Assembly (NCBI GenBank): GCA_951406725.2
Contig: OX597840.1
Span: forward strand, 1,860,001 to 1,924,000
Length of the DNA: 64,000 bases
Direction: 5' to 3'
From: Octopus vulgaris
Lineage: Eukaryota
Positions 5,490 to 63,468 of the stretch are shown one piece after another; within the stretch, counting starts at the first letter, position 1; every line of letters starts with the position of its first letter. Below the pieces are notes generated by a model that was not told where the DNA came from, did no database searches, and worked only from the letters and a program-made list of their open reading frames with translations. A program made the translations under genes and the position numbers.

Positions 5490-5645
5490 ATAGCCAGCGG
5501 GGCCTCATATCAATGAGGGGTGGGGGGCGATGCGCATTGAGGCCGTCGAGAGGTGGGCCCCGAATAGGCGCGCATTCTCTCCTGATGACCCCATACACAT
5601 GCAGGCTTCTGGTATGCGGAGTTTTTGACTGGGCATTTTTGCATC
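5490..5645 (+). repeat. Unclassified coding-like repeat fragment (homologue at 22370-22514, opposite strand)
   Basis: EAVERWAPNRRAFSPDDPIHMQASGMRSF aligns without gaps to DAVKRMASKQRALSPDDPINLLAPGIRRF. Confidence 0.55.
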
Positions 5646-6054
5646 TCTTTCTCTTTTTTCTCTTTTACTTGTTTCAGTCATTTGACTGCGGCCATGCTGG
5701 AGCACCGCCTTTAGTCGAGCAACTCGACCCCGGGACTTATTCTTTGTAAGCCCAGTACTTTTTCTATCGGTCTCTTTTTTGCCGAACCGCTAAGTGACGG
5801 GGACGTAAACACACCAGCATCGGTTGTCAAGCAATGCTAGGGGAACAAACACAGACACACAAACAAACACATATATATATATACATATATACGACAGGCT
5901 TCTTTCAGTTTCCGTCTACCAAATCCACTCACAAGGCATTGGTCGGCCCAGGGCTATAGCAGAAGACACTTGCCCAAGATGCCACGCAGTGGGACTGAAC
6001 CCGGAACCATGTGGTTGCTTAGCAAGCTACTTACCACACAGCCACTCCTGCGCC
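5646..6054 (-). mobile_element. tRNA-derived SINE, family A (internal TA/TG microsatellite), full length
   Basis: Head GGCGCAGGAGTGGCTGTGTGGTAAG...GGTTCAGTCCC, internal (TA)n, 3' GCAGTCAAATGACTGAAACAAGTAAAAGAG; about 12 copies in the window. Confidence 0.9.
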
Positions 6055-6292
6055 TATGTGCAAGTTGTTTGCAAGACATCTGTTTCTTACCTGCTTTTGG
6101 GTAAATATGTCCTCTGATCGCTACATTATTATATTCATGCATTTTACTCGTCAATTTGCCTTTCATTCTTTCGTGGTCGATACATAAAAAAATCAGTGAA
6201 ACATTGGAGTCGATATAATCCACACATCCTCTTCCCCCCAAATCGCTACGCTTGTGACAAAATTTGAAAACATTATTATTAATATTAGAGTT

Positions 6293-6500
6293 AAGACGAC
6301 CAGCTGACAGAATTGTTAGCAGACCGGACGAAATACTTAGCGGTTTTTCGCTCGTCGCTACGTTCTGAGTTCAAATTCCACAGAGGTCGACTTTGCCTTT
6401 CATCCCTTCGGCGTCGATAAATAAATTACCAGTGAAACACTAATGTTGATGCAATTCACCAGTCCCCTCCCACCTTATTTGAAGCCTTGTGCCTCCAGTA
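6293..6500 (+). mobile_element. SINE family B
   Basis: GTTCTGAGTTCAAATTCC...GTCGACTTTGCCTTTCATCC; followed by a (TAA)n tail. Confidence 0.8.
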
Positions 6501-6508
6501 AAAAGGAT

Positions 6509-6679
<171 letters not shown>

Positions 6680-6685
6680 GCTAGA

Positions 6686-6897
6686 GTGGCGAGCTGGCAG
6701 AATCATTAGCACGCCGAAGAAAATGCTTTTCGGTATATAGTCCGTCTTTCCGTTCTGAGTTCAAATTCTGTCGAGGTCGATTTCACTTTTCATCCTTTCG
6801 GGGTCGATTACATAAGTACTAGTTATGCACTGGGGTCCATGTAATCGACTTAATCCCTTCCCCAAAATTTGAGCCTTTGTCCCTCTAGTAGTAAGGA
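6686..6897 (+). mobile_element. SINE family B
   Basis: GTGGCGAGCTGGCAGAATCATTAGC...CCTTTCGGGGTCGAT. Confidence 0.85.
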
Positions 6898-6909
6898 TTA
6901 TATTTATTA

Positions 6910-7310: not shown

Positions 7311-7624
7311 TTAATACTGTTTTTTTTTTCAGCCCAAAATACAATGATAGTGAAAAAGTCTATCAAAATATAACAGTGGGAAATATATTATAGTTGCTGT
7401 AAAAATAACATGATTCCACACCTATACTTTCATGGAAATGTAAAAAAAAAATATTATTATATTATAAGGAAATACGAGGAATATATCAAATATATTTATA
7501 TCGAATTTATTTATATCGGCAGATCGATTTCGGAATAATATATCTGAGCATGTGTGCGCATTTACTGTATATATAGGCATAAGCAACCTCTGTACATGCA
7601 TACATTCATACACATATACATATA

Positions 7625-7687
<63 letters not shown>

Positions 7688-7689
7688 GG

Positions 7690-7869
7690 AGAGAGAGAGA
7701 GAGAGAGATTCAGTTGTGTGTGTTCGTGTTAGTGTCCGTGTGTATATGCATGTTTATGAGCATGTGTGTATATAAGTACATGTATATTATGTTTAAAAAA
7801 TATCACCGGTTTATTTTAATTCAGAATGTGAATATGTGTCTGTACGTGTTTGTAAATATATATGCCTGC

Positions 7870-7919
<50 letters not shown>

Positions 7920-8078
7920 ATGCGTGTGTGTGTGTGTATAAATATAAATATATTATATAGTAAATATATATATATATATATTTATATATATATTTATATT
8001 TATATTTTTATATACATATACGCATACTTATATATCTATAGAGATAGTCGTACATCGTACGTATATATGTATGTACAT

Positions 8079-8120
<42 letters not shown>

Positions 8121-8616
8121 CTACTTCGAATCAGTATGTACGTATTACCAAATATAAACCGCATTTTTTCCACAGGTATTCTATTCAGAAGAAAACTAAA
8201 CGCCATCGTTAAAGAAACTAAACAAACAAAAAAAAAAGAAAAAAAACGAAGACGGAACCGTAAATCGAGGCTAATAAATCGGTAGATACGATGCCAAGTT
8301 TAGCCTTTACTGAATAGAAGAATATTTCTATAAAACATTCACACACCTATTCATCAATTCCGCTTCGTTTTGCTGTTTAACCTCCAGTAAACTCTAAACG
8401 ACGAAGAATCGCGACCCGGCTGATATTCTGCAGCTTATATTGACATATGTAGAAACGTTAGTACGAACCTATGTATATATGTATGTATGTATGTATATAT
8501 GTATGTATGTATGTATATATGTATTCAATTTTGATTGTTTGTATGCATGTATATATATATATATATTTATGCATGCATGTATGAATATATATGAATATAT
8601 ATATATATATGTATGC

Positions 8617-8682
<66 letters not shown>

Positions 8683-8684
8683 GC

Positions 8685-8716
<32 letters not shown>

Positions 8717-8723
8717 ATATATA

Positions 8724-8754
<31 letters not shown>

Positions 8755-8781
8755 GTATAGATATATGTATATATGTATATA

Positions 8782-8822
<41 letters not shown>

Positions 8823-9121
8823 GTATGTATAAACACATATCTTTGTCAGTAGACGATGTACGTCGCTGCTTTTCTGTATGTATGCGTGTATATTAGTATG
8901 TACGTATCTTCATCTATTAATGCATATAAATATATATCTATATCTATGTGTGTGAATGTGCGTGTGAGTGTGTGTGAGTGTTTGTTTGTGTGTATATGTA
9001 TATGTACGCGTGTGTGTGTGTGTGTTAATAAATTAGATAACGAATTTGATATGTGCTCAATGAATATGTCTTATTTTATACGTGTAAACGTATAATTATC
9101 TCATGCAGAGTATCTATATAC

Positions 9122-9195
<74 letters not shown>

Positions 9196-9380
9196 GAGAG
9201 AGAGAGAGAGAGAGAGAGATTCAGTTGTGTGTGTTCGTGTTAGTGTCCGTGTGTATATGCATGTTTATGAGCATGTGTGTATATAAGTACATGTATATTA
9301 TGTTTAAAAAATATCACCGGTTTATTTTAATTCAGAATGTGAATATGTGTCTGTACGTGTTTGTAAATATATATGCCTGC

Positions 9381-9458
<78 letters not shown>

Positions 9459-9617
9459 ATGCGTGTGTGTGTGTGTATAAATATAAATATATTATATAGT
9501 AAATATATATATACATATATTTATATATATATTTATATTTATATTTTTATATACATATACGCATACTTATATATCTATAGAGATAGTCGTACATCGTACG
9601 TATATATGTATGTACAT

Positions 9618-9659
<42 letters not shown>

Positions 9660-10157
9660 CTACTTCGAATCAGTATGTACGTATTACCAAATATAAACCG
9701 CATTTTTTCCACAGGTATTCTATTCAAAAGAAAACTAAACGCCATCGTTAAAGAAACTAAACAAACAAAAAAAAAAGAAAAAAAACGAAGACGGAACCGT
9801 AAATCGAGGCTAATAAATCGGTAGATACGATGCCAAGTTTAGCCTTTACTGAATAGAAGAATATTTCTATAAAACATTCACACACCTATTCATCAATTCC
9901 GCTTCGTTTTGCTGTTTAACCTCCAGTAAACTCTAAACGACGAAGAATCGCGACCCGGCTGATATTCTGCAGCTTATATTGACATATGTAGAAACGTTAG
10001 TACGAACCTATGTATATATGTATGTATGTATGTATATATGTATGTATGTATGTATGTATATATGTATTCAATTTTGATTGTTTGTATGCATGTATATATA
10101 TATATATTTATGCATGCATGTATGAATATATATGAATATATATATATATATGTATGC

Positions 10158-10245
<88 letters not shown>

Positions 10246-10251
10246 ATATAT

Positions 10252-10300
<49 letters not shown>

Positions 10301-10323
10301 AGATATATGTATATATGTATATA

Positions 10324-10372
<49 letters not shown>

Positions 10373-10666
10373 AAACACATATCTTTGTCAGTAGACGATG
10401 TACGTCGCTGCTTTTCTGTATGTATGCGTGTATATTAGTATGTACGTATCTTCATCTATTAATGCATATAAATATATATCTATATCTATGTGTGTGAATG
10501 TGCGTGTGAGTGTGTGTGAGTGTTTGTTTGTGTGTATATGTATATGTACGCGTGTGTGTGTGTGTGTTAATAAATTAGATAACGAATTTGATATGTGCTC
10601 AATGAATATGTCTTATTTTATACGTGTAAACGTATAATTATCTCATGCAGAGTATCTATAAACGTA
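7690..10666. repeat. Near-identical tandem duplication, unit about 1.5 kb
   Basis: Unique text (e.g. GATTCAGTTGTGTGTGTTCG, GAATCGCGACCCGGCTG, CATGCAGAGTATCTATA) occurs twice in the same order; differences are mostly (TA)n lengths. Confidence 0.95.
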
Positions 10667-10995
10667 TGAACATATATTTATTTACAATAATATCCAAATC
10701 TATATATATAAATAAGAACATGTGTGTGTATATATATATAAAGATGATAGAAAGGCTGTGCGATATATAGATGGATACAGAGATAGAGAGCTAGATAGAT
10801 AAATAGTAGAGATAGGTAGGTACGTATATAGATAGAAAAACATATAGATAGATAGGTAGATCGATAGATAGATAGGTATGTAGGTAGGTGAGTAGGTAAG
10901 TAGATAGATAGATTGATATATATATATGAGCATGTATGTATATATGTATGTATAAAATATATATATATATATTTATAGGCATGTATGCATATATG

Positions 10996-11364: not shown

Positions 11365-11545
11365 TCGACAGTTTTAATAAAAATAAAGAAAAAGCAAACG
11401 AACGTGATGACGTGCACCAGAGATGTAAACGCTTGACACTTGGTGAAAGGAGAGTTTGACGTTTCGCGCATTACTCTTCGTCAGAAAGAGAAAGGGAGAA
11501 TCGTGAAGAAATCGCTTGTGGCTCACGCGTATTTACTTTCCTGAA
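11365..11545 (-). mobile_element. Short PLE-terminus-like element with minimal hammerhead motif (11455-11487)
   Basis: Minus: UUU CUGACGA A GAG UAAUG CGC GAAAC GUC AAA; core intact, one mismatch in stem II. Confidence 0.6.
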
Positions 11546-14092: not shown

Positions 14093-14205
14093 GAGTTTAC
14101 AAAACAAACAGATGTATTAGTATAACTCTCAGGAATAGCAAAAGTCTTTTACGTTTCGAGCCTACACTCTTCTACAGAGAAGGACACAGAAAAAACAAGG
14201 AGAAA
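14092..14205 (-). mobile_element. Hammerhead element family H2, internally deleted, decayed core
   Basis: Homologous to 39364-39563; core reads CUGUAGA; flanked by (TA)n. Confidence 0.65.
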
Positions 14206-14236
14206 TATATATGTATATATGCATATATGTATGCAG

Positions 14237-15633: not shown

Positions 15634-15634
<1 letters not shown>

Positions 15635-15820
15635 AGGAGAATTTACGAAAAAAGGCAAAAGACGAAGACAGGTGGTGTAGACAACAAACAGATGTATTAG
15701 TATAACGCTCAGGAATAGAAAAAGTATTTTACGTTTCGAGCCTACGCTCTTTTACAGAAAAGGGACACAGAAAAAACAAGGAGAGAAAAAAATGTGTGTA
15801 ATGCCTAACGATCTATCTTG
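15634..15820 (-). mobile_element. Hammerhead element family H2, decayed core
   Basis: Homologous to 39364-39563 with nearly the same ends; core CUGUAAA; TA flanks. Confidence 0.7.
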
Positions 15821-16244: not shown

Positions 16245-16250
16245 ATTCAA

Positions 16251-16457
16251 AATGTGACCGCGGTTGTACCGTTAGCGATTTTTTTCCTCCGTCTTACCTT
16301 CTTTGGATCTTTCCTTTTTCTATGTTTCTGACGAAGAGTTCCGCTCGAAACGTTAAACCGATCTTCTTTCCTTCTTTCCTGAGCGTTCAATAACACTATA
16401 CGTGTTCCACGTCCTCGCGTTATTGTGTTTTCTCTTTGTGTTTTCATGTTTGAATTA

Positions 16458-16461
<4 letters not shown>
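16251..16461 (+). mobile_element. Hammerhead element family H1 (PLE terminal-repeat-like, ~210 bp)
   Basis: Homologous to 18203-18400, 48263-48446 and 59493-59690; (TA)n on both sides. Confidence 0.8.
16324..16358 (+). ncRNA. Minimal type I hammerhead ribozyme motif, intact
   Basis: GUUU CUGACGA A GAGU UCC GCUC GAAAC GUU AAAC: 4-bp stem I, stem II and a palindromic ACGU stem III. Confidence 0.75.
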
Positions 16462-16523
<62 letters not shown>

Positions 16524-16530
<7 letters not shown>

Positions 16531-17031
16531 CTGAGAATGTGTGTCTGTCTGTGTTCTGTATTAGCCCTAAAACTCGATAAGAATCCAACCGATTTCATCC
16601 AAACTTTGCACATGCATTACTTAGTGTCCTTGAGTGCCTAATGCAGGCCCGAAGCAATCTTTCTGATTGATTCAGTATTACATATCAAAAAGATGACACT
16701 GTTTCACTTTTATTCTTTTACTTTTAATTCTAAGATCATTTTATTCCTATTACATTTTAAATAAATAATTTATATCCTAATGTGAACAACATTACGCATC
16801 GGCAACTCACCGTCTTCGTGGCGTCTTCGTGTGTCAGTAAATGCGTTGACTGACTTAATGAGTAGCTGCAGGTGAAACTCTTAACAAAAAACAATGAGCT
16901 GGCAGGTCCAAGGTATATAAAACTATACATCTACCGTTCAATTACCAGTTGATAATTATCACAGCAGTTGTAAGGTTGCAAGGTATTTACGGTTACGTAT
17001 TAACCCTTAAATTGACATTTAATACATGGGC

Positions 17032-17035
<4 letters not shown>
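16524..17035 (+). mobile_element. Possible 5' part of a non-autonomous Helitron-like element
   Basis: TATATAA...GTGTGTCTGTCTGT...ACCGATTTCATCCAAACTTTGCAC resembles the start of 6910-7310; no 3' hairpin or CTAG seen. Confidence 0.4.
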
Positions 17036-17089
<54 letters not shown>

Positions 17090-17125
17090 AAGAAGGTTTG
17101 AAAATGCAATTTAAAAGATGTTTAT

Positions 17126-17170
17126 TTACTTAACCGGTTTCACTCTTTGGAAAAAGATTGTCAAAAGTAA
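17126..17170 (-). ncRNA. Minimal hammerhead motif with U3-A8 covariant core
   Basis: Minus: UUACUU UUGACAA UCUUU UUCC AAAGA GU GAAAC CG GUU AAGUAA; 6-bp stem I, 5-bp stem II, palindromic ACCGGU; about 40 bp from a (TA)n tract. Confidence 0.6.
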
Positions 17171-17934
17171 CATATGGAAGTTTGGTTGCGTTAATTATTG
17201 GTTGTTGCAAATTGCCACATTACATGTATATATACAGTTTTTGGTAACAGGGACATGTTAAGGGCATAAAATAGTACAACAGTATGATGAGAATACTTGA
17301 AAAAATGGGCAGAAAAGATTAAAACAAATATATTATACATCTCAGGGTAATTTCCAGGAGGAAATATCAAAAAATATATATATAAAGAAATAATTATAAT
17401 TATTGTGGTATTTACCGTTAAATTAGGAGTTCGTACATTTGCTTCTATTTGGTTCATTTGTTTATATTTGGCTAACTTATACTGAATGCAAAGGTAATGA
17501 CATACATCTGCTTACAAAAATAAAGATAGATTTATAATTTCTATGTTCATAATTGGAGTCTCACGACAGAAGCAAGATGAAACGTTCTCATGATCGGCAA
17601 ATGCACGCTGCAGCATGTAAGATGGAGCCTCGATACAGAAGAGAGGTGAGATTTTCCCAAGATCTGCAAAGGCATGGTGCTGCACTTAATGCTGAATCAT
17701 TGAAACAACTTTTTAATGATTTGACAGGTGTCCAATAGAATAGCTCTCAGAAACAGGACGCGTACAGATTCGTTCTTCACAACTCCTGGAGCTACTTTCA
17801 GATATGATCCATCTCTTTCTTATATAAATGATAATTCTGTCCAAATTGGTGTCTAAACTCAAATTGTCGTTTCTGCAAAGCTTTAAATTTCCAAATGAAA
17901 CTAATAATATGCATATGTACACATTTATATTTAT

Positions 17935-18164
17935 GTGTTTTTGTGTCTGTGTTTGTCACCCCAATCACCATCACTGATTGGAAACCTGTGTTGGTGTGTT
18001 TCCGTCCCCGTAAAGTTGCGGTTTGGTAAAACAGCAAAACAAAAATACGTACAAGGCTTACAACGAAAACGTTCTGGGGTGGATTTCTTCAACTAAAAAT
18101 ACCCATTAGGGCAGTGCCTCAACATAGCTATAATCAAATGACAAAAACGAGTAAAAGAGTAAAA

Positions 18165-18168
<4 letters not shown>
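17935..18168 (+). mobile_element. Diverged 3' half of SINE family A
   Basis: GTGTTTGTCACCCC...CAAATGACAAAAACGAGTAAAAGAGTAAAAG. Confidence 0.7.
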
Positions 18169-18202
<34 letters not shown>

Positions 18203-18207
<5 letters not shown>

Positions 18208-18400
18208 ATCCAAACAAGAAAGCACAAAAAAACACAACAACGCGAGGACGTGGAACAAATATAGTATTATTGGACGCTCAGGAAAGAAGGAGGGTTTAAC
18301 GTTTCGAGCGGAGCTCTTCGACGGAAACATAGGAGAAGGAAAGATCCAGAGAAGGGAAGACAGAGGGAAAAAATCGCCAACGGTACACACGAGGTCACAA

Positions 18401-18440
<40 letters not shown>

Positions 18441-18532
18441 AATCCAAACAAGAAAGCACAAAAAAACACAACAACCCGAGGACGTGGAACAAATATAGTA
18501 TTATTGGACGCTCAGGAAAGAAGGAAAGAAGT
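18203..18532 (-). mobile_element. Hammerhead element family H1: full unit (18203-18400) plus a tandem 3' fragment (18437-18532)
   Basis: Core CCGUCGA...GAAACGUU at 18294-18328; the two pieces are separated by (TA)n. Confidence 0.8.
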
Positions 18533-22589: not shown

Positions 22590-23366
22590 AAATTTTGGTA
22601 CAAGGCCAGTGATTTCAGAGAGGATGTAATTCGATTACTTCGACCCCTGTATTTGGCTGGTACTTAATTAACGACCCCAAATAATGAAAGGAAAAATTGA
22701 CCTCGGTGGAATTTTAATTCAGAATGTAAAGATGGGCGAAAGACCACTATGAATTTTTCCCGGGGTGCAAACGTTTCTTATTTCTTTACTGCCCACAAGG
22801 GGCTACGCACAGAGGGGACAAACAAGGACAGACATACGGATTAAGTCGATTATATCGACCCCAGTGCGTAACTGGTACTTAATTTATCGACCCGAAAGGA
22901 TGAAAGGCAAAGTCGACCACGGCGGAAATTGAACTCAGAACGTAACGGCAGACAAAATACCTATTTCTTTACTACCCACAAGGGGCTACACACAGACTGG
23001 AAAAACAAGGACAGACACACGGTTTAAGTCGATTATATCGACCCCAGTGCGTAACTGGTACTTAATTTATCGACCCCGAAAGGATGAAAGGCAAAGTCGA
23101 CCTCGGCGGAATTTGAACTCAGAACGTTACGGCAAACGAAATACTTATTTCTTTACTACACACAAGGAACTAAACACAGAGAGGACAAACAAGGAAAGAC
23201 AAACGGATTAAGTCGATTATATTGACCTCAGTGTGTAGTTGGTACTTATTTAATTGACCCCGAAAGGATGAAAGGCAAAGTCGACCTCGGCGGAATCTGA
23301 ACATAATGGCAGACGAAATGCCGCTAAGCATTTCGCCCGGCGTGCAACCGTGTCCGCCAGCTCGTC
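22590..23366 (-). mobile_element. SINE family B cluster: an older copy plus a one-head, three-body tandem multimer
   Basis: Units start at 22779, 22962 and 23146 (period 183-184); only one head, at about 23320-23366. Confidence 0.9.
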
Positions 23367-27987: not shown

Positions 27988-28209
27988 CTGTGTTTATTCT
28001 GTGTGTATGTGTTTGTCCCCCACCATCGCTTGACAACCGATGCTGGTGTGTTTACCTCCCCGTAACTTAGAGGTTCGGCAAAAAAGAGACCGATAAAATA
28101 AGTACTAGGCTTACAAAGAATAAGTCCTGGGGTCGATTTGATCGACTAAAGGTGGTGCTCCAGTATGGCCACCGTCACATGACTGAAACACGTAAAAGAG
28201 TAAAAGAGT
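27826..28209 (+). mobile_element. SINE family A (5' clipped)
   Basis: Match to family A. Confidence 0.9.
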
Positions 28210-29284
28210 ATGCATACACACATGTATATTTATATAAATATATATATATATATTTAAACACCCACTCATATATATACATTTATGCATATGTATATGTATA
28301 TATGTATATATGTATATATGTCTGTGTGTGTCTATATAATTATGTATGTATATAGATGATGGTGTATGTATATTAATAGAACAATCAGAAACTGAAACTA
28401 ATTATCAGTGTCATGACCACTTCGAACATTAAATCTACAGGTGATTGCGAACAAAACACACCTGCGGGTATGCAACCGCCCCCACCCAACACCCACAAAC
28501 GCACACACACACACACACAAATACACACAAACTGGCACGCGCACAAAGAAAGCGACTTTCTTCTGCGAGCATTATGTCGTACGAAACATAATATTCATCA
28601 CAAGAGTTAAATCTATTTCAGACAAAGCTTCGTTTAATATTTTCCGTCTCCTCAAACCATTTTCCCTATTTTTTTCATTATATATTAAGAAACACCTTTT
28701 AAGTCTTTGATCTTTAGCGGTTCCTTTTTGATCTTTGTACAAGTTTTTTTCTTCCCTTTTTTTTCTTTTTTTTTTTTGAAGAGGTGCTTATTTGGTTTCA
28801 TTTTTAAGACATTGTAGGAATTCTCCTTATCGAACTGGCGAGATTGTTGAATAAAGAAGACTGGAAATGATTGGCAGTATATATACTCCACTCTTCAAAG
28901 AACGAAGCTATGTTATCTGTCATTGGTTGCTTCAGTCGTGAACCTTGCTCATCAGGAGACTGCCATGTTTAAACACGATTTTTTGCCGGGGTCGGTTGTC
29001 AAGCGACATTAGGGCCACACACACAAACACACACACATAACACACACACACACACACACGCACACACACAGACACACACAGACACACACAGACACACACA
29101 TATATATATATATAGACGTATATACGACGGGCTTCTTTCAGTTTCCGTCTACCAAATACACTAACAAGGCTTTGCTCAACCCGAGGCTAGTAGAAGACAC
29201 TTGCCCATCGTGCCACGCAGTGGGACTGAACCCAGAACCATGTGGTTGGTAAGCCAGCTACTTATCACACAGCCACTCCTACGC

Positions 29285-29376
<92 letters not shown>

Positions 29377-29585
29377 GTGTCTGTGTGTGTCCTCCTAATA
29401 TCGCTTGACAACCGATGGTGGTGTGTTTAACACCCCGTAACTTAGTGGTTTGGCAAAAGACACCGATAGAATAAGTACTAGGCTTACAAAAAATAAGTCC
29501 TGGGGTCGATTTGCCCCCGATTAAGGGCAGTACTCCAACATGGCCACAGTCAAATGAGTGAAACAAGTAAAAGAGTAAAGAGCAA

Positions 29586-29620
<35 letters not shown>

Positions 29621-30849
29621 GCGCAGGAGTGGCTGTGTGGTAAGTAGCTTGTTTACCAACCACATGGTTTCGGGTTCAGTCCCACTGCGTGGCACCTTGG
29701 GCAAGTGTGTTCTACTATAGCCATGGGCCGACCAAAGCCTTGTGAGTGGATTTGGTAGACAGAAACTGAAAGAAGCCCGCCGTATATATGTATATATGCG
29801 TGTGTGTGTTTGTGTGTTTGTGTTTGCCCCCTAGCATTGCTTGACAACCGATGCTGGTGTGTTTATGTCCCTGTTACTTAGCGGTTCGGCAAAAAAGAGA
29901 CCGATAAAATAAGTACTAGGCTTACAAAGAATAAGTCCTGGGGTCGATTTGATCGACTAAAGGTGGTGCTCCAGTATGGCCACCGTCACATGACTGAAAC
30001 ACGTAAAAGAGTAAAAGAGTATGCATACACACATGTATATTTATATAAATATATATATATATATATTTAAACACCCACTCATATATATACATTTATGCAT
30101 ATGTATATGTATATATGTATATATGTATATATGTCTGTGTGTGTCTATATAATTATGTATGTATATAGATGATGGTGTATGTATATTAATAGAACAATCA
30201 GAAACTGAAACTAATTATCAGTGTCATGACCACTTCGAACATTAAATCTACAGGTGATTGCGAACAAAACACACCTGCGGGTATGCAACCGCCCCCACCC
30301 AACACCCACAAACGCACACACACACACACACAAATACACACAAACTGGCACGCGCACAAAGAAAGCGACTTTCTTCTGCGAGCATTATGTCGTACGAAAC
30401 ATAATATTCATCACAAGAGTTAAATCTATTTCAGACAAAGCTTCGTTTAATATTTTCCGTCTCCTCAAACCATTTTCCCTATTTTTTTCATTATATATTA
30501 AGAAACACCTTTTAAGTCTTTGATCTTTAGCGGTTCCTTTTTGATCTTTGTACAAGTTTTTTTCTTCCCTTTTTTTTTTTTTTTTTTTTTGAAGAGGTGC
30601 TTATTTGGTTTCATTTTTAAGACATTGTAGGAATTCTCCTTATCGAACTGGCGAGATTGTTGAATAAAGAAGACTGGAAATGATTGGCAGTATATATACT
30701 CCACTCTTCAAAGAACGAAGCTATGTTATCTGTCATTGGTTGCTTCAGTCGTGAACCTTGCTCATCAGGAGACTGCCATGTTTAAACACGATTTTTTGCC
30801 GGGGTCGGTTGTCAAGCGACATTAGGGCCACACACACAAACACACACAC

Positions 30850-30890
<41 letters not shown>

Positions 30891-31099
30891 ACACAGACAC
30901 ACACAGACACACACATATATATATATATAGACGTATATACGACGGGCTTCTTTCAGTTTCCGTCTACCAAATACACTAACAAGGCTTTGCTCAACCCGAG
31001 GCTAGTAGAAGACACTTGCCCATCGTGCCACGCAGTGGGACTGAACCCAGAACCATGTGGTTGGTAAGCCAGCTACTTATCACACAGCCACTCCTACGC

Positions 31100-31193
<94 letters not shown>

Positions 31194-31401
31194 GTGTCTG
31201 TGTGTGTCCTCCTAATATCGCTTGACAACCGATGGTGGTGTGTTTAACACCCCGTAACTTAGTGGTTTGGCAAAAGACACCGATAGAATAAGTACTAGGC
31301 TTACAAAAATAAGTCCTGGGGTCGATTTGCCCCCGATTAAGGGCAGTACTCCAACATGGCCACAGTCAAATGAGTGAAACAAGTAAAAGAGTAAAGAGCA
31401 A

Positions 31402-31436
<35 letters not shown>

Positions 31437-31711
31437 GCGCAGGAGTGGCTGTGTGGTAAGTAGCTTGTTTACCAACCACATGGTTTCGGGTTCAGTCCCA
31501 CTGCGTGGCACCTTGGGCAAGTGTGTTCTACTATAGCCATGGGCCGACCAAAGCCTTGTGAGTGGATTTGGTAGACAGAAACTGAAAGAAGCCCGCCGTA
31601 TATATGTATATATGCGTGTGTGTGTTTGTGTGTTTGTGTTTGCCCCCCTAGCATTGCTTGACAACCGATGCTGGTGTGTTTATGTCCCTGTTACTTAGCG
31701 GTTCGGCAAAA
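28072..31711. repeat. Near-identical tandem duplication, unit about 1.81 kb, bounded by family A SINEs
   Basis: Identical ORF-track translations at 28413/30226 and 28441/30254 (offset 1813); each unit carries SINE A pieces (28992-29286 minus, 29380-29583 plus; 30800-31100 minus, 31190-31398 plus). Confidence 0.95.
29619..30020 (+). mobile_element. SINE family A, chimeric junction copy
   Basis: 5' half matches 31435-31711; 3' half matches 28072-28209. Confidence 0.9.
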
Positions 31712-31845
31712 TAGACCCATAGAATAAGTACTGGGCTTACAAAAATAATAAGTCCCGGGGCCGAGTTGCTCGATTAAAGGCGGTGCTCCAGCATGGCCGC
31801 AGTCAAATGACTGAAACAAGTAAAAGAGTAAAAGAGTAAAAGAGT
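31435..31845 (+). mobile_element. SINE family A, full length
   Basis: GGCGCAGGAG head through a (GTAAAAGA)n tail. Confidence 0.9.
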
Positions 31846-32469
31846 ATATATATACGCAGACAAATCCATACATACATCCACCTTCCATCCATTCGTCCAG
31901 CTGTCCAGCCACCCTTCCCGTTATCCTTACTTATATACAGTGAAAGACAAAACAAAATTCATCTGTGTATCCCACGCCATCGTCACTCCAGTCCTCGAGT
32001 CAATGTACGAATATACCGAATAATGAAAGGCTAAAATGAGGAAGAACTGGGAAATGGAGGAGTGGGCAAGAATGACCTGATAAGTAGAGAGAAACGATGA
32101 TTGGAGGCGGTGCAGGTGAAAGGAATGGAGTAGGAGTTGAAGGAGATGTGGTGATGGTGTAGCAAACAGAAGGAGGAATAGGAAGAGGAACGTAACTATT
32201 GAATTTTCTAATTATTTTCATTTCTAGATTTATATAATACAATTACAGAAGAACTTACGTTGATTGATTTTATCGATCATATATCAGTACTATACATACA
32301 CTTAGATGCGTACACACAAACATATATATATATATATATATATATGCACATACAGGCATACGTACTAAGAGATGCAAATAGATAAATGGATGGATATAAT
32401 GTGTGGATGTCTTTGTGTGAGTTTCTCATATGTGTATGCATGTATGATATAGATTCTACCTACCTACTC

Positions 32470-33744: not shown

Positions 33745-35664
33745 TAAGGGAGTAACGCTTAAGCAATAAGGATAAATAATTTATTTCTAAAATGAATACT
33801 TACAACCTAAAGCGGTTATCTGGCAGAGACGTTAACGCGCCGGGCGAAGTACTTAGGGGTATTTTAAATTTCGCTGATGTCGACTTTGACGTACATATAT
33901 TTTAATTATTTTTTATTTTAACTAAACCCTTTCAAACTTCCCATACTGCTAGAATATGTCACATAGAACTGGATTTACTCTTAACGATTTTGACAAAATT
34001 TTGTATATTAAAGGCGGTATTTCGTCTGTCTTTAGGTTCTGAGTTCAAATCCCGCCGAGGTCGACTTTATCTTTCATCCATTTCGGATCTACTCAATTCG
34101 ATGTTTTTGACAAAATTTTGTATTTTAGAAGCGGTATTTCGTCTGTCTTTAGGTTCTGAGTTCAAATCCCGCCGAGGTCGACTTTATCTTTCATCCATTT
34201 CGGATCTACTCAATTCGATGTTTTTGACAAAATTTTGTATTTTAGAAGGTATTTCGACGGAAATTAGAGAGTGACAATGGACAAATCCGTGTTTGATAAG
34301 TGCCAATAGACGAAAATCTCAGCTTTTGACTTACTTTCTAACTTCTGCCGGTGATGTATAAACACATATCACATATATGTGCAAAAAATCTTATCACGCA
34401 ATCAAAGCAATGAAAGATCCTCTAACTGGTCGCTCAACACGCTAAAAATAGCAGTCAACGTATCCCCCTACCTAAATCACACGCCCATTGTATGAAATGG
34501 CCTACATTATCCCTAAAAAGACGGTTTGCTGAAGGCTAGAATGTCTTTGATGATAGGTTTGCAGTATCAGATTTGATTTGAGGCTACATAGCAACATTAT
34601 GGTAATACACGCTCGATTTTCACTAAGAAAATAGGGAATTTGATTTTTTTGTGTGGAATCAAGTACCCTGACCTCATTATATGTTGCAAATCCCCTTATT
34701 TTGGTCCGAAAACATGTGGTGGTGTGTTCTCCACCAATCCCGGAAGATATTTTCCGTTGAATGAATTTATGTGACCTCCTAGTATTGCAAAATTTGGTTA
34801 CTTAACGTAACTGATGGTTTTGTAGTGTTGTTGTGTGTGACTTCTCGTGAGCCCTGGTGCAACCAACAACATGGTAAAATTCCCTGCCATTAATTTGGTG
34901 CGGATGGGTAATATTAAATAATTCAATTATAACATATATTTAAATTAAACATGAAGAAAACTGAAATATTATTATCACTTACATGGAAAAATTGAAATAT
35001 TATCTTTCAGTAGTTTATAAGGTAAAATCTTGAATTATTAATTGACACATTAGGTAGGGGGATACGTTGACTGCTATTTTTAGCGTGTTGAGCGACCAGT
35101 TAGAGGCTCTTTCATTGCTTCGATTGCGTGATAAGATTTTTTGCACATATATGGAGTATGTGTTTATACATCACCGGCAGAAGTTAGAAAGTAAGTCAAA
35201 AGCTGAGATTTTCGTCTATTGGCACTTATCAAACACGGATTTGTCCATTGTCACTCTCTAATTTCCGTCGAAATAACTTCTAAAATACAAAATTTTGTCA
35301 AAAACATCTAATTGAGTAGATCCGAAATGGATGAAAGATAAAGTCGACCTCGGCGGGATTTGAAGTCAGAACCTAAAGACAGACGAAATACCGCTTTTAA
35401 TAAACAAAATTTTGTCAAAATCGTTAAGAGTAAATCCAGTTCTATGTGACATATTCTAGCAGAATGGAAAGTTTGAATGTGTTTAGTTAAAATAAAAAAA
35501 TAATTAAAATATATGTACGTCAAAGTCGACATCAGCGAAATTTGAAATACCCCAAAGTATTTCGCCCGGCGCGTTAACGCCTCTGCCAGATCACCGCTTT
35601 AGGATGTAAGTGTTCATTTTAGAAATAAATTCTTTATCCTTATTGCTTAAGCGTTGCTCCCTTA
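33745..35664. repeat. Large inverted repeat (arms 33745-34475 and 35050-35664, spacer about 575 bp)
   Basis: Arms are reverse-complementary along their length; the left arm has an extra 117-bp tandem copy; arms contain SINE B fragments. Confidence 0.9.
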
Positions 35665-37638: not shown

Positions 37639-38145
37639 TGCATACAACACTGTAGCTATTCTTGTCTTCTTAACTGCAAGACCTTTTCAAATAAAAGATA
37701 GAAAATAGATTTCTCCTGACGAAATACAGATTTAATCTATTACGATTATTATTAACCTGAAATTTCAGAATCTTAAATTCACATAATGCTTCGCTTGTAT
37801 TTACATTATTTCCATGGCTGTAACATTTATAATAATTCAAAAGGAAAACACGGGAAAAATTCGTAAATTTTTCAAATTACGTGCTATATGCAGTTGGTAT
37901 GCTTTCCAAGCACCGGGTTTTCGGTTCAATTCTGCTAAGAGCCAATTTAGTTACGGGTTTAGTTCTATAGGCTCTGGCCCTTAAAAAACATTGTCCTTTT
38001 GCTGGATGGAGATAGGAATTGGTTCTCTCTATATGACTGAATGAATGAGTGCATGCAAGTATGCATGTATATGTGTGCATATATGTATGTGTGTATGTAC
38101 ATGTGTAAGAATATGTGTAAACATATATATAGATATAGATATATA

Positions 38146-38374
38146 GCGGCGAGCTGGCAGAAACGTTAGCGCGCCGGGCGAAATCCTTAGCAGTATTTCG
38201 TCTGTCGTTACGTTCTGAGTTCAAATTCAGCCGAAGTCGACTTTGCCTTTCATCCTTTCGTGTCGATAAATAAAGTACCAGTTTCGCACTGGCGTCGATG
38301 TAATCGACTTAACCTCTTTGTCTGTCCTTGTTTCTCCCCTCTATGTTTGGCCCCTGCTGGGCAGTAAAGAAATA
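38146..38374 (+). mobile_element. SINE family B, full length
   Basis: GCGGCGAGCTGGCAGAAACGTTAGC through GGGCAGTAAAGAAATA. Confidence 0.9.
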
Positions 38375-39363: not shown

Positions 39364-39365
<2 letters not shown>

Positions 39366-39562
39366 CGGGAAGGTTTACGAAAATAAACAAAAGAAGAAGG
39401 CAGGTGGAGTATAAACAAACAAATGTATTAGTATGATGCTCAGGAATAGAGATAGAACAAGTCTTTTACGTTTCGAGCCTACGCTCTTCGTCAGAAAGAT
39501 ACACAGAAAAAAACAAGGAGAGAAAAAAAAATGTGTGTAGGAGCTAACGGTCTATCATGGCG

Positions 39563-39563
<1 letters not shown>
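39364..39563 (-). mobile_element. Hammerhead element family H2 (~200 bp) in (TA)n
   Basis: Homologous to 15634-15820 and 14092-14205; (TA)n on both sides. Confidence 0.8.
39462..39499 (-). ncRNA. Minimal type I hammerhead ribozyme motif, intact
   Basis: UCUUU CUGACGA A GAGC GUAG GCUC GAAAC GUA AAAGA: 5-bp stem I, 4-bp stem II, GUA cleavage triplet. Confidence 0.8.
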
Positions 39564-39602
<39 letters not shown>

Positions 39603-47993: not shown

Positions 47994-48443
47994 ACTCTTT
48001 ACTATCTTTTACTCTTCTACTTGTTTCAGTCATTTGACTGCGGCCATGCTGGAGCACCGCCTTTTAGTCGAGCAAATCGACCCCAGGACTTATTCTTTGT
48101 AAGCCTAGTACTTATTCTATCGGTCTCTTTCTGCTGAACCGCCAAGTGACGGGGACATAAACACATCAGCATCGGTAGTCAAGCGATGTTGGTGGGGGGG
48201 GGACAAACACATATATACACACACATACATATATATATATATATATGTACATATATATATATAAAGTTAATCCAAACAAGAAAGTACGAGAAACACAACA
48301 ACGCGAGGATGCGGAACAAATATAGTATTACTGAAGGCTCAGGAAAGAAGGAGGGCTAAACGGTTCGAGCGGGGCTCTTCGTCGGAAACATAGGAGAAGG
48401 AAAGATCCAGAGAAGGGAAGACAGTGGAAAAAAATCGCCAACG

Positions 48444-48532
<89 letters not shown>

Positions 48533-58672: not shown

Positions 58673-58677
<5 letters not shown>

Positions 58678-58752
58678 TAATCCAAACAAGAACGCACAAA
58701 AAACACAACGCGAGTACGTGGAACAAATATAGTATTATTGGACGCTCAGGAA
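58673..58752 (-). mobile_element. 3' fragment of family H1 (no ribozyme)
   Basis: AAGTTAATCCAAACAAGAA...GGACGCTCAGGAAAGA in (TA)n. Confidence 0.75.
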
Positions 58753-58763
58753 AGATATAGATA

Positions 58764-59451: not shown

Positions 59452-59499
<48 letters not shown>

Positions 59500-59585
59500 A
59501 ATCCAAACGGGAAACAAAAAAACAACAACAATGGAACAATTACAGTATTATTATTAATAGGCGCTCAGGAAATGGAAGCAGGGAG

Positions 59586-59620
59586 GTATGACGTTTCGAG
59601 CGGAGCTCTTCGTCGGAAAC
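59586..59620 (-). ncRNA. Minimal hammerhead motif, U4C core variant, at the PLE 3' terminus
   Basis: GUUU CCGACGA A GAGC UCC GCUC GAAAC GUC AUAC. Confidence 0.6.
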
Positions 59621-62530
59621 ATAAAGAAGGAAGAGAGAGGAAAGAAAGATCCCGGAGCGGGCAACGGAGATAGAGAAAAAAACGACTGGTGTTAGGAGTA
59701 GCACATGGTGAAAGGCGGATGTTTACGATAACAAGAGCAAAGTGGGTTTTTAAAGGCAAAAGAGTGGAGACAAGGTTGGTAACGCAACAGATGTGTGTGT
59801 ATGTGTGAGTGTGTGCGTGTGCGTGTGTGTATGTGTGTGTGTGAGGCGAGGTAAAAAAACAAAAAATATATGTATGTGTTAGTGTGTGCGTCTGTGTGTA
59901 GGCGTGTGAGGTAGGGCGAGACGGTGGTCAGCATAGCAGCAGCATAGCAGACAAAGGTCAGTAGTAAGAAAAGGAGGAAGGAGGAAGGGAGGGAGGGGAA
60001 GGGGTGGGGGCGTATGTAGCGTGCCAGCGTGTGTTGAGTAGTAGTGTGTGTGTGTGTCCAGTGTCGTGGTAGTATTAGTGGCGAGTAGATTGAATGTGTG
60101 TAAGAGTAATGTATATGTTTAAGCAATGTGTGTATATGTGTGCGCGTGTGTGTAACGAAAAAAAAGGGGGGGGTTTAGGAAAAGGACTCCAGCGGAGGGG
60201 AGATGGAAGAGTGGTCCCGCGGAGACGGGCGTGGGAAAACCCAACGACAAGCGACATCCCAGGAACGGGCGGGAGGTCTCGTCGGGTCCAAGGGCGAGGT
60301 GCATGCGGCACGCATGCGTGCGCGAGCCGGCGCAAGCGCGTGTGTGCGCGAGCCTGCGAGTGTGCGCGTACGTATGTGTGTGTGTGGATGTGTGAGTGTG
60401 TCTGTGTGTATGTCTGGGTGGCAGTGTGTCCGATGAATGTATGTGAGTATGTGTGTATATATGTGTGTGCATAGATGTATGTCCGTGTGTGTGTGTGTGT
60501 GTGTATGTGTATGAGTGTGTATGTATGTACGTGTGGGTGTGGGGAAGTGTGTGTATGTGCATGTGTGTGCGCGAACATACAGGTGGGTGAGTGAGTGCGT
60601 GTGTGTGTATGTATGTGTGAGTGTGTATGTATGTGTGTGTAGGATGCATGTATATGTATGGGTGTATGTATGCGTGTGTGTATGTATGTATGTGTACGTG
60701 CGTGTGTGTGTGTGTATGCGTGTAGGTGTGCGCGTGTGCATGCGTGAATGTATGTGCGTATGTGTGTATGTGTGCATGTGTGTGGGTATATATGTGTGTG
60801 CGTATATGTGTGTGTATGTGCGTACATGTGTGTGTGTATGCATGTGTGTGTGTAGGTGTGTAGGCGTGTGTGTATAGGTGTATGTATGTAAGTATGTATG
60901 GGTGTGTCCGTGTATGTGTGTATGTATGTGTGTGTATGTAGCTGTGTGGGCGTGTGTATATGTGTGTGTATGTAGGTGTGTGGGCGTGTGTATATAGGTG
61001 TATGTATGTATGTCTGGGTGTGTCCGTGCATGTTTGTGTGTGTGTGTGTATGCATGTGTATGTAGGTGTGTGTGTACGTGTGTAATGTATGTGTGTATGC
61101 GTGTGTATGCGTGCGTGTGTGTATGTAGGTGCGTGTGTATGTGTGTGGGAGTGTAGGTGTGTGTGTGCGTGTGCGTGTTTATGTTGGTGTGTGCGTATGT
61201 GAGTGTGAGTGTATGAGTGTTTGTCATGCATGTGTGTGCGCGTGCAGGTGAGTGTGTGTGTAAGTATGTGTGTGTGTATGTTTGTGTGAGTGTGTATGTG
61301 TGTATGTCTGTGTGTATGTATGTGCGTATAGGAGTATGTAGATATGTGTGTGTGTATGTATATGGGTGTATGTATGTATGTGTGTGTGTGTGCATGTGTA
61401 TAAGTATATGCGTGTGTGCGTATGTGTGTGTATGTGTATGTGTGTGTGTTTATGTATGTGTGTATGTATGTGTGTAGGCGTGAGTGTGTAGATGTATGTA
61501 TGTATGGGTGTGTGTCAGTGTGTGTTTGTGTGTGTGTGTAGGTAGATGTGTGTGTCTGAGTGAGGGTATGGCTGTGTAGGTGTGTGTGTGTATGAATGTA
61601 AGTGTGTGTGTATATACAAGTGTAATGTATGTATGTGGTGTGTGTGTGTGTGTATGTGTACGTGTGCGTGTGTATGTGTGTGTGTGTATGCGTGTGAGTG
61701 TGGGTGTATGTGTGTATGTCTGTGTGTGTGTATGTCTGAAGTGGGTATGTGTGTGTATGTATGTATGTGTGTGTGTGTGCGGGTATGTGTGTGTGTGTAT
61801 GTGTGTGTGTGAGTAGGTGTGCGTGTATGTATGTGGGTAGGGATGCATGCGAGTGTGTGGGTATGTATGCAAACATACGCAAGCGCACATCCGAAGCAAG
61901 CCCACACACACGAAGCGCGCTCACGCACACAGCGCACAAGCAGTGCAACGCAAGCCCAAAGGGGCCGACCGAGCCCCCAGCGCGCGCCAAGGCGCGCGAG
62001 CGCAAAGGCCCTCGAACGCCCCGCTGCGCGGGAACCGAGGATCCATCAGCCAAAACCGGAAAGCAGAAAAGAGGGGGGGGGGCTGCCTGGATGCAAAAAG
62101 GTGTATGTGTGTGTGCATTCAGTGTACGGGTGTGCATGTGTGGGTATGTATGTATGTATGTGCCTACATGTATGTGTGCATGTGTGTGTGTGTGAAGTAT
62201 GTACGTGCGGTGTGTGTGTGTGAGTGTGTGTGTATGTATGTGCGTATGTATGTGTGTGTGTATGTGTGTATGTATGTCTGTGTGTGTGTGTGTGTGTAAG
62301 TATGTATGTGTGTGTGTAAGTATATATGCGTGTGTGTATGTATGTATGTGTGTGTGTATGTGCATGTGTGTCTGTAAGTGTGTGTGATTAAATGTGTGAA
62401 TGTATGTACGTAGATGGGTCTACGTATGTGTGTGTGTGAACAGGCGTGTGGGAGGTAGGTGGGTGGGATATAGGTGGGTGTGTGTGTGTGGGTGGTGTGT
62501 CCGAAAAAAAAAAAAAAAAAAAAAACGGTC

Positions 62531-63468
62531 TCAAGAGGAGGGGGCTGTGTTAAGTCCGTGTGGGGTGGTAGTTTGTAGGGTGAAGATGTAGCGTTGCTCC
62601 AAGTGGAGCCTGGAAAGTGGGCGACCATTGTGGGGGGCGAGACCAAACACTGAGATGTCATCTCGGGAATGGCCGGCCGAGCGGAAGTGGCGTGCGACGG
62701 GAGAAAAAGAGTGTAGGCGAACGTCCCTCAAGTGTTCAGTGAAACGGTCGAACAACCGGCGTCCCGTCTGACCTACATACAGCATCCCGCATAGGTTGCA
62801 TTTAATGCAGTAAATAAGGCCAGACGAGGTGCACGTAAAAGAGTGCCTAATGCGTACAGTATGCAGGTTGGAGCCGGTGACAGCGGTGGTGTTGGTGATG
62901 AAGGGGCAAGTGTTGCAGCGGGATCTAGAGCAAGGGAATGTTCCGTGTGGGGCTGAGGGGGAAGGAGAGAGGGTGCTGTGGACCAGGAGGTCACGCAGAT
63001 TGCGGGCTCGTTTGAAAGAGGACAGGGGTGGGTTAGGGAAAATGGGGCGGGTGGTGGGATCAAGCTGGAGGCGACGGAAGGCACGTAGTATCTTGCGACG
63101 AAGGGGTAGGGTAGAGGGGTGGAAAAGGAGGGGGAAGGGGGTGCGGTTGGGGGTGGGCGGGGGGAAGGAGACAAGGCGGTAGTGCGGTCGATGCGACGGG
63201 CACGGGTGAGGGCATCAGAGAGGAGTGTGGGTGGGTAACCTCGGAGTCTGAACATGCGGGCCAGGTATTGAGATTGGGTCTCGAAATCCTGGTCGCGGCT
63301 GCACAAACGTCGGAGGCGGAGGAACTGGGAGTAGGGGATGGCTCGTTTGGTGTGGAAGGGGTGGGAGGAAGAGAAGTTGAGATAGAGGTGGGAATCCGTA
63401 GGTTTAAAGAAGGCGGTGGTGGTGAGAGAGCTGGAGGGGTGATCGATGCGGAGAGAGATGTCAAGGAA
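62531..63468 (-). pseudogene. PLE ORF C-terminus: RT motif 7 and thumb, Cys-rich linker, GIY-YIG endonuclease
   Basis: FLDI...FKPTDSHLYLNFSSSHP..TKRAIPYSQFLRLRRLCS...RGYP; one frameshift in a C-run near 63150; then FKRARNLRDLLVHS..CSRSRCNTC..GLIYCIKCNLCGMLYVGQTGRRLFDRFTEH..VARHF..LEQRYI..PHGLN, stop. Confidence 0.92.

What the first reader, a model, noticed from the sequence alone, without database searches (positions are those of the whole stretch)
16251..18400. H1 and H2 units share both ends, so they look like discrete elements, not random 5' truncations
Seen: H1 at 16253 starts TGTGACCGCGGTTGTACCG and the reverse copy at 18399 starts TGTGACCTCGTGTGTACCG; the copy at 48446 stops within the same motif; the 3' ends read GTTTG(G/A)ATTAACT then TA repeat. 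H2 copies at 15634-15820 and 39364-39563 also have nearly coincident ends. Inference: fixed-length solo terminal repeats or SINE-like templates with a defined start about 75 nt upstream of the ribozyme.
Basis: partly seen in the sequence, partly recalled or inferred. Interest (0 to 1): 0.7.

Follow-up and report, generated by a model that had tools for sequence, protein, structure and literature searches.

The report
Fixed-length stubs of Penelope retrotransposons
These roughly 200-base repeats are the ribozyme-bearing ends of ordinary Penelope-like jumping genes, and many copies stop at one sharp point that likely marks where the element's RNA begins, so the genome likely keeps a record of aborted first steps of copying.

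Summary
Of 70 H1 copies picked only by their 3' 20-mer, 47 start 203-215 nt from the 3' end, 22 are shorter and 1 is longer. Of 50 H2 copies, 20 start at 181-190. H1 and H2 are not independent SINEs. Longer copies run upstream into GIY-YIG and RT coding sequence, and H1 also runs downstream into the 5'UTR and ORF. They are pseudo-LTR ends of Penelope-like elements (Neptune/Nematis type) carrying a minimal hammerhead motif, usually followed by (TA)n. A young intact sister family (H3, 949-aa ORF, one 4-kb copy in this window) shows the full layout. In all three families the edge lies on a TCA initiator-like motif, so it is probably the transcription start. Best model (inferred): reverse transcription primes inside the 5' pseudo-LTR, reaches the RNA end and integrates without jumping on. 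H3 also piles up just 3' of the predicted ribozyme cut (18 versus 2 copies), possibly a trace of cleavage in vivo; H1 and H2 do not. No RNA start data were available. Known class, useful mechanistic refinement.

The parts
16245..16460 (+). H1 solo pseudo-LTR end, starting at the family edge (-213), followed by (TA)n
16324..16358 (+). Minimal type I hammerhead motif in H1: stem I GTTT/AAAC, core CTGACGA at 16328, stem II GAG(T)/(G)CTC, GAAAC; predicted cut after GTT at 16354
   Evidence: sequence; matches the min-HHR description in PMC4209133; no Rfam hit at gathering score
18203..18399 (-). H1 copy starting at -205; hammerhead core mutated
18437..18531 (-). 5'-truncated H1 copy (-95), head to tail with the previous copy across a (TA)n/(TG) spacer
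48265..48451 (-). H1 copy starting at about -196 inside a (TG)n flank
58675..58754 (-). 5'-truncated H1 copy (-83)
15635..15820 (-). H2 solo pseudo-LTR end starting at -184; core degenerate
39367..39564 (-). H2 solo pseudo-LTR end starting at the family edge (-190); core CTGACGA at 39494
14095..14214 (-). Truncated H2 copy with an internal deletion near its 3' end
59495..63468 (-). 4-kb 5'-truncated copy of sister family H3: last third of the ORF (aa 638-949, with GIY-YIG, at 63468-62534), long 3'UTR, and hammerhead-bearing end homologous to H1; 97% identical to an intact copy

Best explanation
H1 and H2 are the hammerhead-bearing terminal repeats (pseudo-LTRs) of two Penelope-like retrotransposon families, and their sharp 5' edge is likely the element's transcription start, reached by a cDNA likely primed inside the 5' repeat and integrated before it jumped on. 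Shown: membership of longer RT plus GIY-YIG elements, the fixed 3' end at a TATA stretch that continues into the 5'UTR, (TA)n flanks, and the sharp 5' edge. Inferred steps: (1) Pol II starts at an initiator-like TCA inside the repeat. (2) The element protein binds RNA downstream of the repeat, nicks (TA)n DNA and primes at the repeat's 3' boundary. (3) RT runs about 190-215 nt to the RNA 5' end. (4) It then either stops, giving H1/H2 stubs; or jumps to the homologous 3' repeat, giving long and tandem copies; or jumps to the 5'UTR, giving mini-elements. In H3, RNA already cut by the hammerhead would give a second, shorter class.
For: Parentage: long H1 and H2 copies lead upstream into GIY-YIG (both) and RT motifs. 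They are 50-80% identical in protein to the intact 949-aa H3 ORF. 23 of 30 loci found with the H1 5'UTR have the H1 end directly upstream. Edge: H1 47 of 70 with 0 in the next 13 nt; H2 20 of 50. The 20-mer just upstream of the H1 edge has 266 genome hits against 5609 for the 3' 20-mer. H3 has 7 of 96 at -213..-224 and none at -129..-212. TA-junction counts in H3 are 6 or more at the edge against 0 at a better-matching TAT site 19 nt upstream. The edge lies on TCA in H1 (TCATTC), H3 (TCACC) and the H2 copies that reach it (5 of 6 have TC before AG). Penelope transcription starts inside its pLTR from an internal promoter (PMC2377424). The anole PLE primes internally 85-92 nt past its hammerhead cut and needs RNA 54-61 nt further downstream (PMC11167929; distances derived by me). 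Here the 3' end lies 103, 94 and 96 nt past the cut. Short and long H1 copies interleave: 13 label changes. In 26 of the 29 scorable 5'UTR loci the 5'UTR or ORF start is joined back to the repeat at about -150..-270, with almost all junctions different, which shows frequent jumps in this zone.
Against: No RNA start was observed: only contigs were available. The edge share differs greatly: H1 47 of 70, H2 20 of 50, H3 7 of 96. Upstream repeats that lead into the 5'UTR rarely stop at the edge: H3 0 of 10; H1 2 of the 6 that reach it. About 8-10 of 26 mini-element junctions lie upstream of the edge, which a single start does not explain. The 5'-most base is often the C before the presumed +1 A. 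Long H2 copies of the main subfamily read CTAGTC, not TCAGTC. I saw no downstream promoter element at the canonical distance (by eye only). Short H1 copies are more clustered on the tree than shuffled labels (13 versus 22.7) and differ at diagnostic sites, with weak bootstrap, which leaves room for separate short source copies.
Confidence: 0.62

Rival explanations
1. Same RNA start, but solo stubs or mini-elements are themselves the main source genes: a SINE-like, non-autonomous amplification carried by the PLE protein in trans.
For: H1 stubs outnumber long copies by more than 20 to 1. Short copies are enriched in some clades, including one of 19 short and 1 long, and differ from long ones at several sites. 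Mini-elements that keep the repeat plus 5'UTR exist. Several H3 edge copies carry variant letters. PMC3846280 reports pLTR sequences sufficient for mobilisation in trans.
Against: Short copies form no single clade (0% of 200 bootstrap trees). Mini-element junctions are nearly all different, with one shared pair among 26. By analogy with the anole PLE, solo stubs lack the downstream RNA needed for priming. The two sets compared were picked by different words, which can itself create site differences.
Confidence: 0.22
2. The edge is not an RNA end but a strong RT stop or RNA processing site, such as a hairpin or protein block, on a longer RNA.
For: A 7-bp hairpin spans the H1 edge. One copy, L005, has a fold-back at this spot. 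Mini-element junctions scatter on both sides of the edge.
Against: The hairpin is no stronger than shuffles (z about -0.4), and the stretches folded at the H2 and H3 edges are not unusual either (z -0.2, -0.55; the H2 stretch began at the edge). Copies include the 3' arm and loop instead of stopping at the hairpin base. In H3, 69 of the 76 copies that reach the edge pass it.
Confidence: 0.1
3. Solo repeats arise by recombination between the two pseudo-LTRs of full-length copies, as for solo LTRs.
For: PMC3846280 suggests recombination or deletion for some rotifer solo pLTRs.
Against: Upstream repeats have no fixed length: H1 13 to over 500 nt, with 2 of 23 in the edge window; H3 all 10 at 248 nt or more. 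Recombination would not give a 13-nt peak. It would need tens of thousands of two-repeat precursors, while the 5'UTR search had 196 first-look candidates, a lower bound.
Confidence: 0.03
4. Smooth 5' truncation, with the peak produced by microhomology between the element's ATAT/TGTG letters and the (TA)n/(TG)n target.
For: Inside the peak, ends favour ATAT and TGTG positions: 14 at -208 and 5 at -205.
Against: Only 1 of 70 copies goes past -215 although AC/AT-rich sequence follows upstream. In H3, a TAT site upstream of the edge has 0 junctions and one downstream has 3, against 6 or more at the edge, which offers only 1 nt. Microhomology explains the spread within the peak, not the peak.
Confidence: 0.03

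Closest known systems
Endonuclease-bearing Penelope-like elements, Neptune/Nematis type (PMC8557442)
   Same: Single ORF with RT and C-terminal GIY-YIG, linker CX2-5CxxC motif, partial tandem pLTRs, 5' truncation, microsatellite flanks.
   Different: In H1 and H2 the commonest product is a fixed-length solo repeat, not a smooth truncation series. Clade not fixed by a tree.
Anole Poseidon element PAc (PMC11167929)
   Same: 3' end of insertions is an internal site about 90-100 nt past the hammerhead cut, at the repeat/5' region boundary; AT-rich targets.
   Different: Here the ATG lies about 256 nt past the repeat end, not inside the ribozyme. No 30-40-nt tail was seen among the 70 H1 3' flanks. 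PAc RNA-seq showed no ends at the ribozyme cut, whereas H3 copies pile up next to it.
Minimal hammerheads of PLE pLTRs (PMC4209133)
   Same: Core without helix III, short helix I, mostly dispersed single motifs attributed to truncated PLEs.
   Different: That paper (parts read) gives no 5'-end distribution. H3 mostly has C at core position 4 (66 of 71 motifs) and H2 mostly T at position 6.
Solo pLTRs of Adineta vaga Penelopes (PMC3846280)
   Same: 218-bp pLTR with an initiator-like sequence; solo copies occur.
   Different: Few copies there, ascribed to recombination or deletion; here tens of thousands with a sharp edge.
Animal non-LTR retrozymes (bioRxiv 10.64898/2026.07.22.740005)
   Same: Short, non-coding, type I hammerhead, derived from PLE pLTRs; dispersed monomers are described.
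   Different: Defined there by tandem units with two or more ribozymes; H1/H2 are dispersed monomers bounded by the edge and the priming site.

Membership tests
EN+ Penelope-like element | Single ORF with RT and C-terminal GIY-YIG | tested here: met
   H3 intact 949 aa; Pfam RVT_1 E 0.0018 and GIY-YIG E 0.013, both below gathering score. 834 homologues, top 57%. H1 and H2 long copies hold broken ORFs 50-80% identical to it; no intact H1 or H2 ORF was found.
EN+ Penelope-like element | Pseudo-LTR: 3' end repeated upstream of the ORF as a partial tandem | tested here: met
   H3. H1: repeat runs into 5'UTR and ORF. H2: upstream repeat not found; no locus could be fetched for it.
EN+ Penelope-like element | Hammerhead motif in the pLTR | tested here: met
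   Motif in all three families. No Rfam match at gathering score. Cleavage not tested.
EN+ Penelope-like element | Variable 5' truncation and AT-rich or microsatellite targets | tested here: met
   Staircase of truncations. Dinucleotide repeat within 20 nt at 62 of 70 3' flanks and 40 of 70 5' flanks, against 6.7% background.
Neptune/Nematis clades | CX2-5CxxC motif in the RT-EN linker | tested here: met
   C817-x4-C-x2-C in H3; motif as described in PMC8557442.
Neptune/Nematis clades | RT phylogeny with reference elements | not testable with these tools
   No named reference elements among the hits.
SINE (independent short element) | Own lineage separate from the autonomous partner | tested here: not met
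   13 label changes; 0% of bootstrap trees with one; partial clustering remains.
SINE (independent short element) | Pol III head (tRNA, 5S or 7SL; A/B boxes) | tested here: inconclusive
   No Rfam family at gathering score in the window; the whole unit aligns to the PLE end. No A/B-box or tRNA scan was run.
Non-LTR retrozyme | Head-to-tail tandem units with two or more hammerheads | tested here: not met
   No tandem array over these units among the 150 of 179 rows shown; sampled copies are mostly single and flanked by microsatellites.
Solo LTR by recombination | Fixed-length terminal repeat at both ends of full elements | tested here: not met
   Upstream repeats vary from 13 to over 900 nt.

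The most novel reading that the evidence does not exclude
Penelope-like elements copy themselves through an LTR-like strong-stop step: priming in the 5' pseudo-LTR, run-off at the RNA 5' end, then a jump to the 3' repeat. This genome holds tens of thousands of integrated strong-stop products that map both the transcription start and, in H3, the hammerhead cut. That would explain how pseudo-LTRs are regenerated and would be fossil evidence that a minimal PLE hammerhead cleaves in vivo.
Probability: 0.4. Interest if true: 0.72.

Novelty: new variant of a known kind. Interest (0 to 1): 0.48.

Why it matters
[quoted passage not shown] A sharp edge in three related families, a second pile-up beside the cut in the young one, and an intact 949-aa family give exact positions to test by 5'RACE and in vitro priming. 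For annotation, some tens of thousands of 200-nt 'SINE-like' repeats per family in this genome are PLE ends.

Tried and rejected
Rfam at gathering score: 0 matches in the window. RNA evidence: no RNA holder listed. Four guessed-RNA runs laid on the H3 repeat and 5'UTR were contigs only and cannot show a start; used neither for nor against. Pile-up at the ribozyme cut was tested in H1 (4 versus 7) and H2 (5 versus 4) and not found. The 72-mer H1 sample had 6 versus 1; the two H1 samples together give no clear excess. Hairpin stop: folds no better than shuffles. An exact pattern for the H1 repeat/5'UTR junction found only the source locus, which has a small deletion; a DNA search then worked. 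The H2 5'UTR and H3 mini-elements could not be examined. A 45-codon open frame from the H1 ribozyme to its 3' end is not kept in H2 and was dismissed by eye. Searches in print for a fixed 5' edge or a strong-stop step in PLEs listed no paper whose title or abstract states it; 'strong-stop' occurred in none of the PLE papers listed. The library lacks most subscription papers and Repbase, so this is not proof of absence. Earlier-finding look-ups by place and sequence were empty.

Full report
Observation. The quoted H1 and H2 copies and motifs are present. Placing window copies on family rulers (0 = last base before the TA flank) gives H1 starts at -213 (16245), -205, -196, -95 and -83, and H2 starts at -184 and -190/191, plus one broken H2 copy at 14214-14095. 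So the window holds both near-coincident starts and plain truncations. All units carry a minimal type I hammerhead motif like that described for PLE terminal repeats (PMC4209133, parts 1-2 of 4 read). Rfam gives no match at gathering score. The genome G000 is unnamed, 2.8 Gb in 227 contigs. It looks like an octopus genome to me from recalled repeat likeness; I did not verify this.

Is the 5' end fixed? I picked copies only by an exact 3' word and took them in genome order on contig C1. H1 has 5609 exact hits; I scored 70 of the first 71 listed, which include one near-duplicate pair. 47 start at -203..-215, 22 at -52..-197, 1 beyond -500, and none at -216..-300. H2 has 4234 hits; of 50 of the first 51, 20 start at -181..-190, 24 are shorter, 4 lie at -201..-216 and 2 are long. 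Against a flat distribution P is about 4e-46 and 6e-17, with windows drawn after seeing the data. An independent sample of 40 fixed 10-kb stretches gave 7 H1 hits, 5 of them starting in the first 12 bases. That implies roughly 5 x 10^4 H1 copies, from only 7 hits. A 72-mer search gave 17 of 30 at the edge, 3 of which in fact continue upstream. Within the peak, ends favour ATAT or TGTG positions that match the flank, so exact ends are blurred by microhomology.

What are they? A minority of copies continue upstream as a staircase of truncations into GIY-YIG coding sequence in both families and RT motifs in H2. A search with the H1 endonuclease piece found a young sister family, H3, with many long open frames. 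Its 949-aa ORF has weak Pfam RT and GIY-YIG hits, a linker C-x4-C-x2-C motif of the Neptune/Nematis type (PMC8557442 passages) and 834 homologues. Its hammerhead end, homologous to H1, lies at both ends of full copies. Broken H1 and H2 ORFs are 67-80% and about 50-65% identical to it. The window holds a 4-kb truncated H3 copy at 63468-59495. The H1 end also runs on downstream: in 23 of 30 loci found with its 5'UTR, the repeat is followed by a TATA stretch and the 5'UTR, with the ATG at +256. The shared 3' end is thus an internal point of the element RNA. It lies 103, 94 and 96 nt past the predicted ribozyme cut in H1, H2 and H3. In the anole PLE the priming sites lie 85-92 nt past the cut and RNA 54-61 nt further downstream is required (PMC11167929, parts 1-2 of 4 read; distances derived by me). 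A dinucleotide repeat flanks 62 of 70 3' ends and 40 of 70 5' ends, against 6.7% background.

What makes the edge? The element sequence continues across it, so the edge is not the end of the DNA source. The 20-mer just upstream has 266 hits, and 10 of 30 of these loci also carry the exact 3' word. The edge lies on TCA in H1 and H3 and in 5 of the 6 H2 copies that reach -190. This is the core of the metazoan initiator (recalled). Penelope is transcribed from an internal promoter in its pLTR (PMC2377424, passages and introduction), and a rotifer pLTR of 218 bp has an initiator-like sequence (PMC3846280, passages). In H3 I scored 96 copies: the first 90 listed plus 6 of 7, one duplicate dropped. 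Four are tandem copies at one locus, and both ends of full elements count separately. 7 start at -213..-224, none at -129..-212, and 69 pass beyond. Genome-wide TA-junction counts in H3 are 6 at about -62, 18 at -96, 3 at -187, 6 at -218 (the pattern misses three variants seen) and 0 at -237. Folds at the edges are no stronger than shuffles. Recombination between repeats is unlikely because upstream repeats have no fixed length.

Source of the stubs. In a tree of 47 edge copies and 28 long copies the labels interleave: 13 changes, 22.7 for shuffles, 0% of bootstrap trees with one change, bootstrap not converged. The stubs are therefore no single separate lineage, yet they cluster more than chance and differ at some sites. 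The two sets were picked by different words. Of 29 scorable 5'UTR loci, 26 are mini-elements: the 5'UTR or ORF start (23 at +204..+301, three at +384..+468) is joined back to the repeat at about -150..-270, and nearly all junctions differ. I read these as independent template jumps; some may act as non-autonomous sources. Against a single start: about 8-10 of these junctions lie upstream of the edge, and repeats that lead into the 5'UTR seldom stop there (H3 0 of 10; H1 2 of the 6 that reach it).

A second end in H3. 18 of 96 H3 copies start in the 40 nt just 3' of the predicted cut (-96), three of them at it, against 2 in the 40 nt 5' of it (P 0.0004); none is shorter than -61. The junction counts agree (18 versus 3, P 0.0015). 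H1 (4 versus 7) and H2 (5 versus 4) show no such excess. H3 has a GTC cleavage triplet but mostly C at core position 4 and a mismatch in stem I; H1 has mostly GTT; H2 mostly has T at core position 6. That GUC cleaves best and that position 6 matters is recalled. Cleavage in vivo is my reading at about even odds; a pause at the stem II hairpin is the alternative, though H1 has the same hairpin and no pile-up.

RNA. No run on record as RNA held the stretch, and the contigs laid cannot show a start. The transcription start is untested.

Comparison and verdict. These are members of the endonuclease-bearing Penelope-like elements. Dispersed single hammerheads from truncated PLEs and solo pLTRs are known, as are monomers of PLE-derived retrozymes (bioRxiv 10.64898/2026.07.22.740005, part 1 of 5 and passages). 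A repeat annotation of an octopus genome lists active Penelope families and many unclassified SINEs and does not mention ribozymes (PMC13282606, passages). I found no statement of a sharp 5' edge or a strong-stop step in nine searches; no supplements were seen, and those of PMC11167929 (end coverage plots) may bear on this. One earlier AI note on another genome reached a similar reading; it is not independent support. Parentage and edge are solid (above 0.95). Edge as RNA start is about 0.8, and priming in the 5' repeat as the main source about 0.6. Interest 0.48.

Noticed in passing
G000 loci L353-L361 (H3); window 59495-63468: Young, intact Penelope-like family with a 949-aa ORF, many near-identical full copies and 1117 exact 3' ends; a good substrate for in vitro work.
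   Followed up: yes
L444-L473: H1 mini-elements: repeat plus 5'UTR joined back to the repeat, 26 of 29 scorable loci, junctions near the ATG and near the 5' edge.
   Followed up: partly
L005:1501-1760: H1 copy with a short fold-back inversion at its 5' edge and an apparent 13-bp target duplication at a non-microsatellite TTTATA site; a nearby duplicate shows the empty site (read by eye).
   Followed up: partly
window 11400-11540, minus strand: A fourth, diverged hammerhead-bearing unit (core at 11484, GTC triplet), probably another PLE family end.
   Followed up: no
H2 copies, L243-L292: Most H2 motifs read CTGTAGA (18 of the 23 in the four commonest classes), a change in the conserved core, although the family amplified widely.
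   Followed up: partly
L113, L116, L141, L170, L272/L389: H1, H2 and H3 ends often sit head to tail in the same (TA)n run, as at window 18203-18531.
   Followed up: no
window 5644-6057, with copies near 12480, 24445, 27822, 29617, 31433, 38836, 45086, 47995: A high-copy repeat of about 410 bp, also flanked by microsatellites.
   Followed up: no
window 22777-23302; also 1901-2350, 6150-6900, 33988-34256, 38100-38340: SINE-like repeat in tandem (184-bp unit, 2.9 copies) and dispersed fragments.
   Followed up: no
window 7608-10740 and about 28200-31850: Two local tandem duplications, about 1.5 kb (95% identical) and about 1.8 kb.
   Followed up: no
L360:121-2451 (oriented): A 777-aa open frame that looks like a different Penelope-type element, upstream of an H3 copy.
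   Followed up: no
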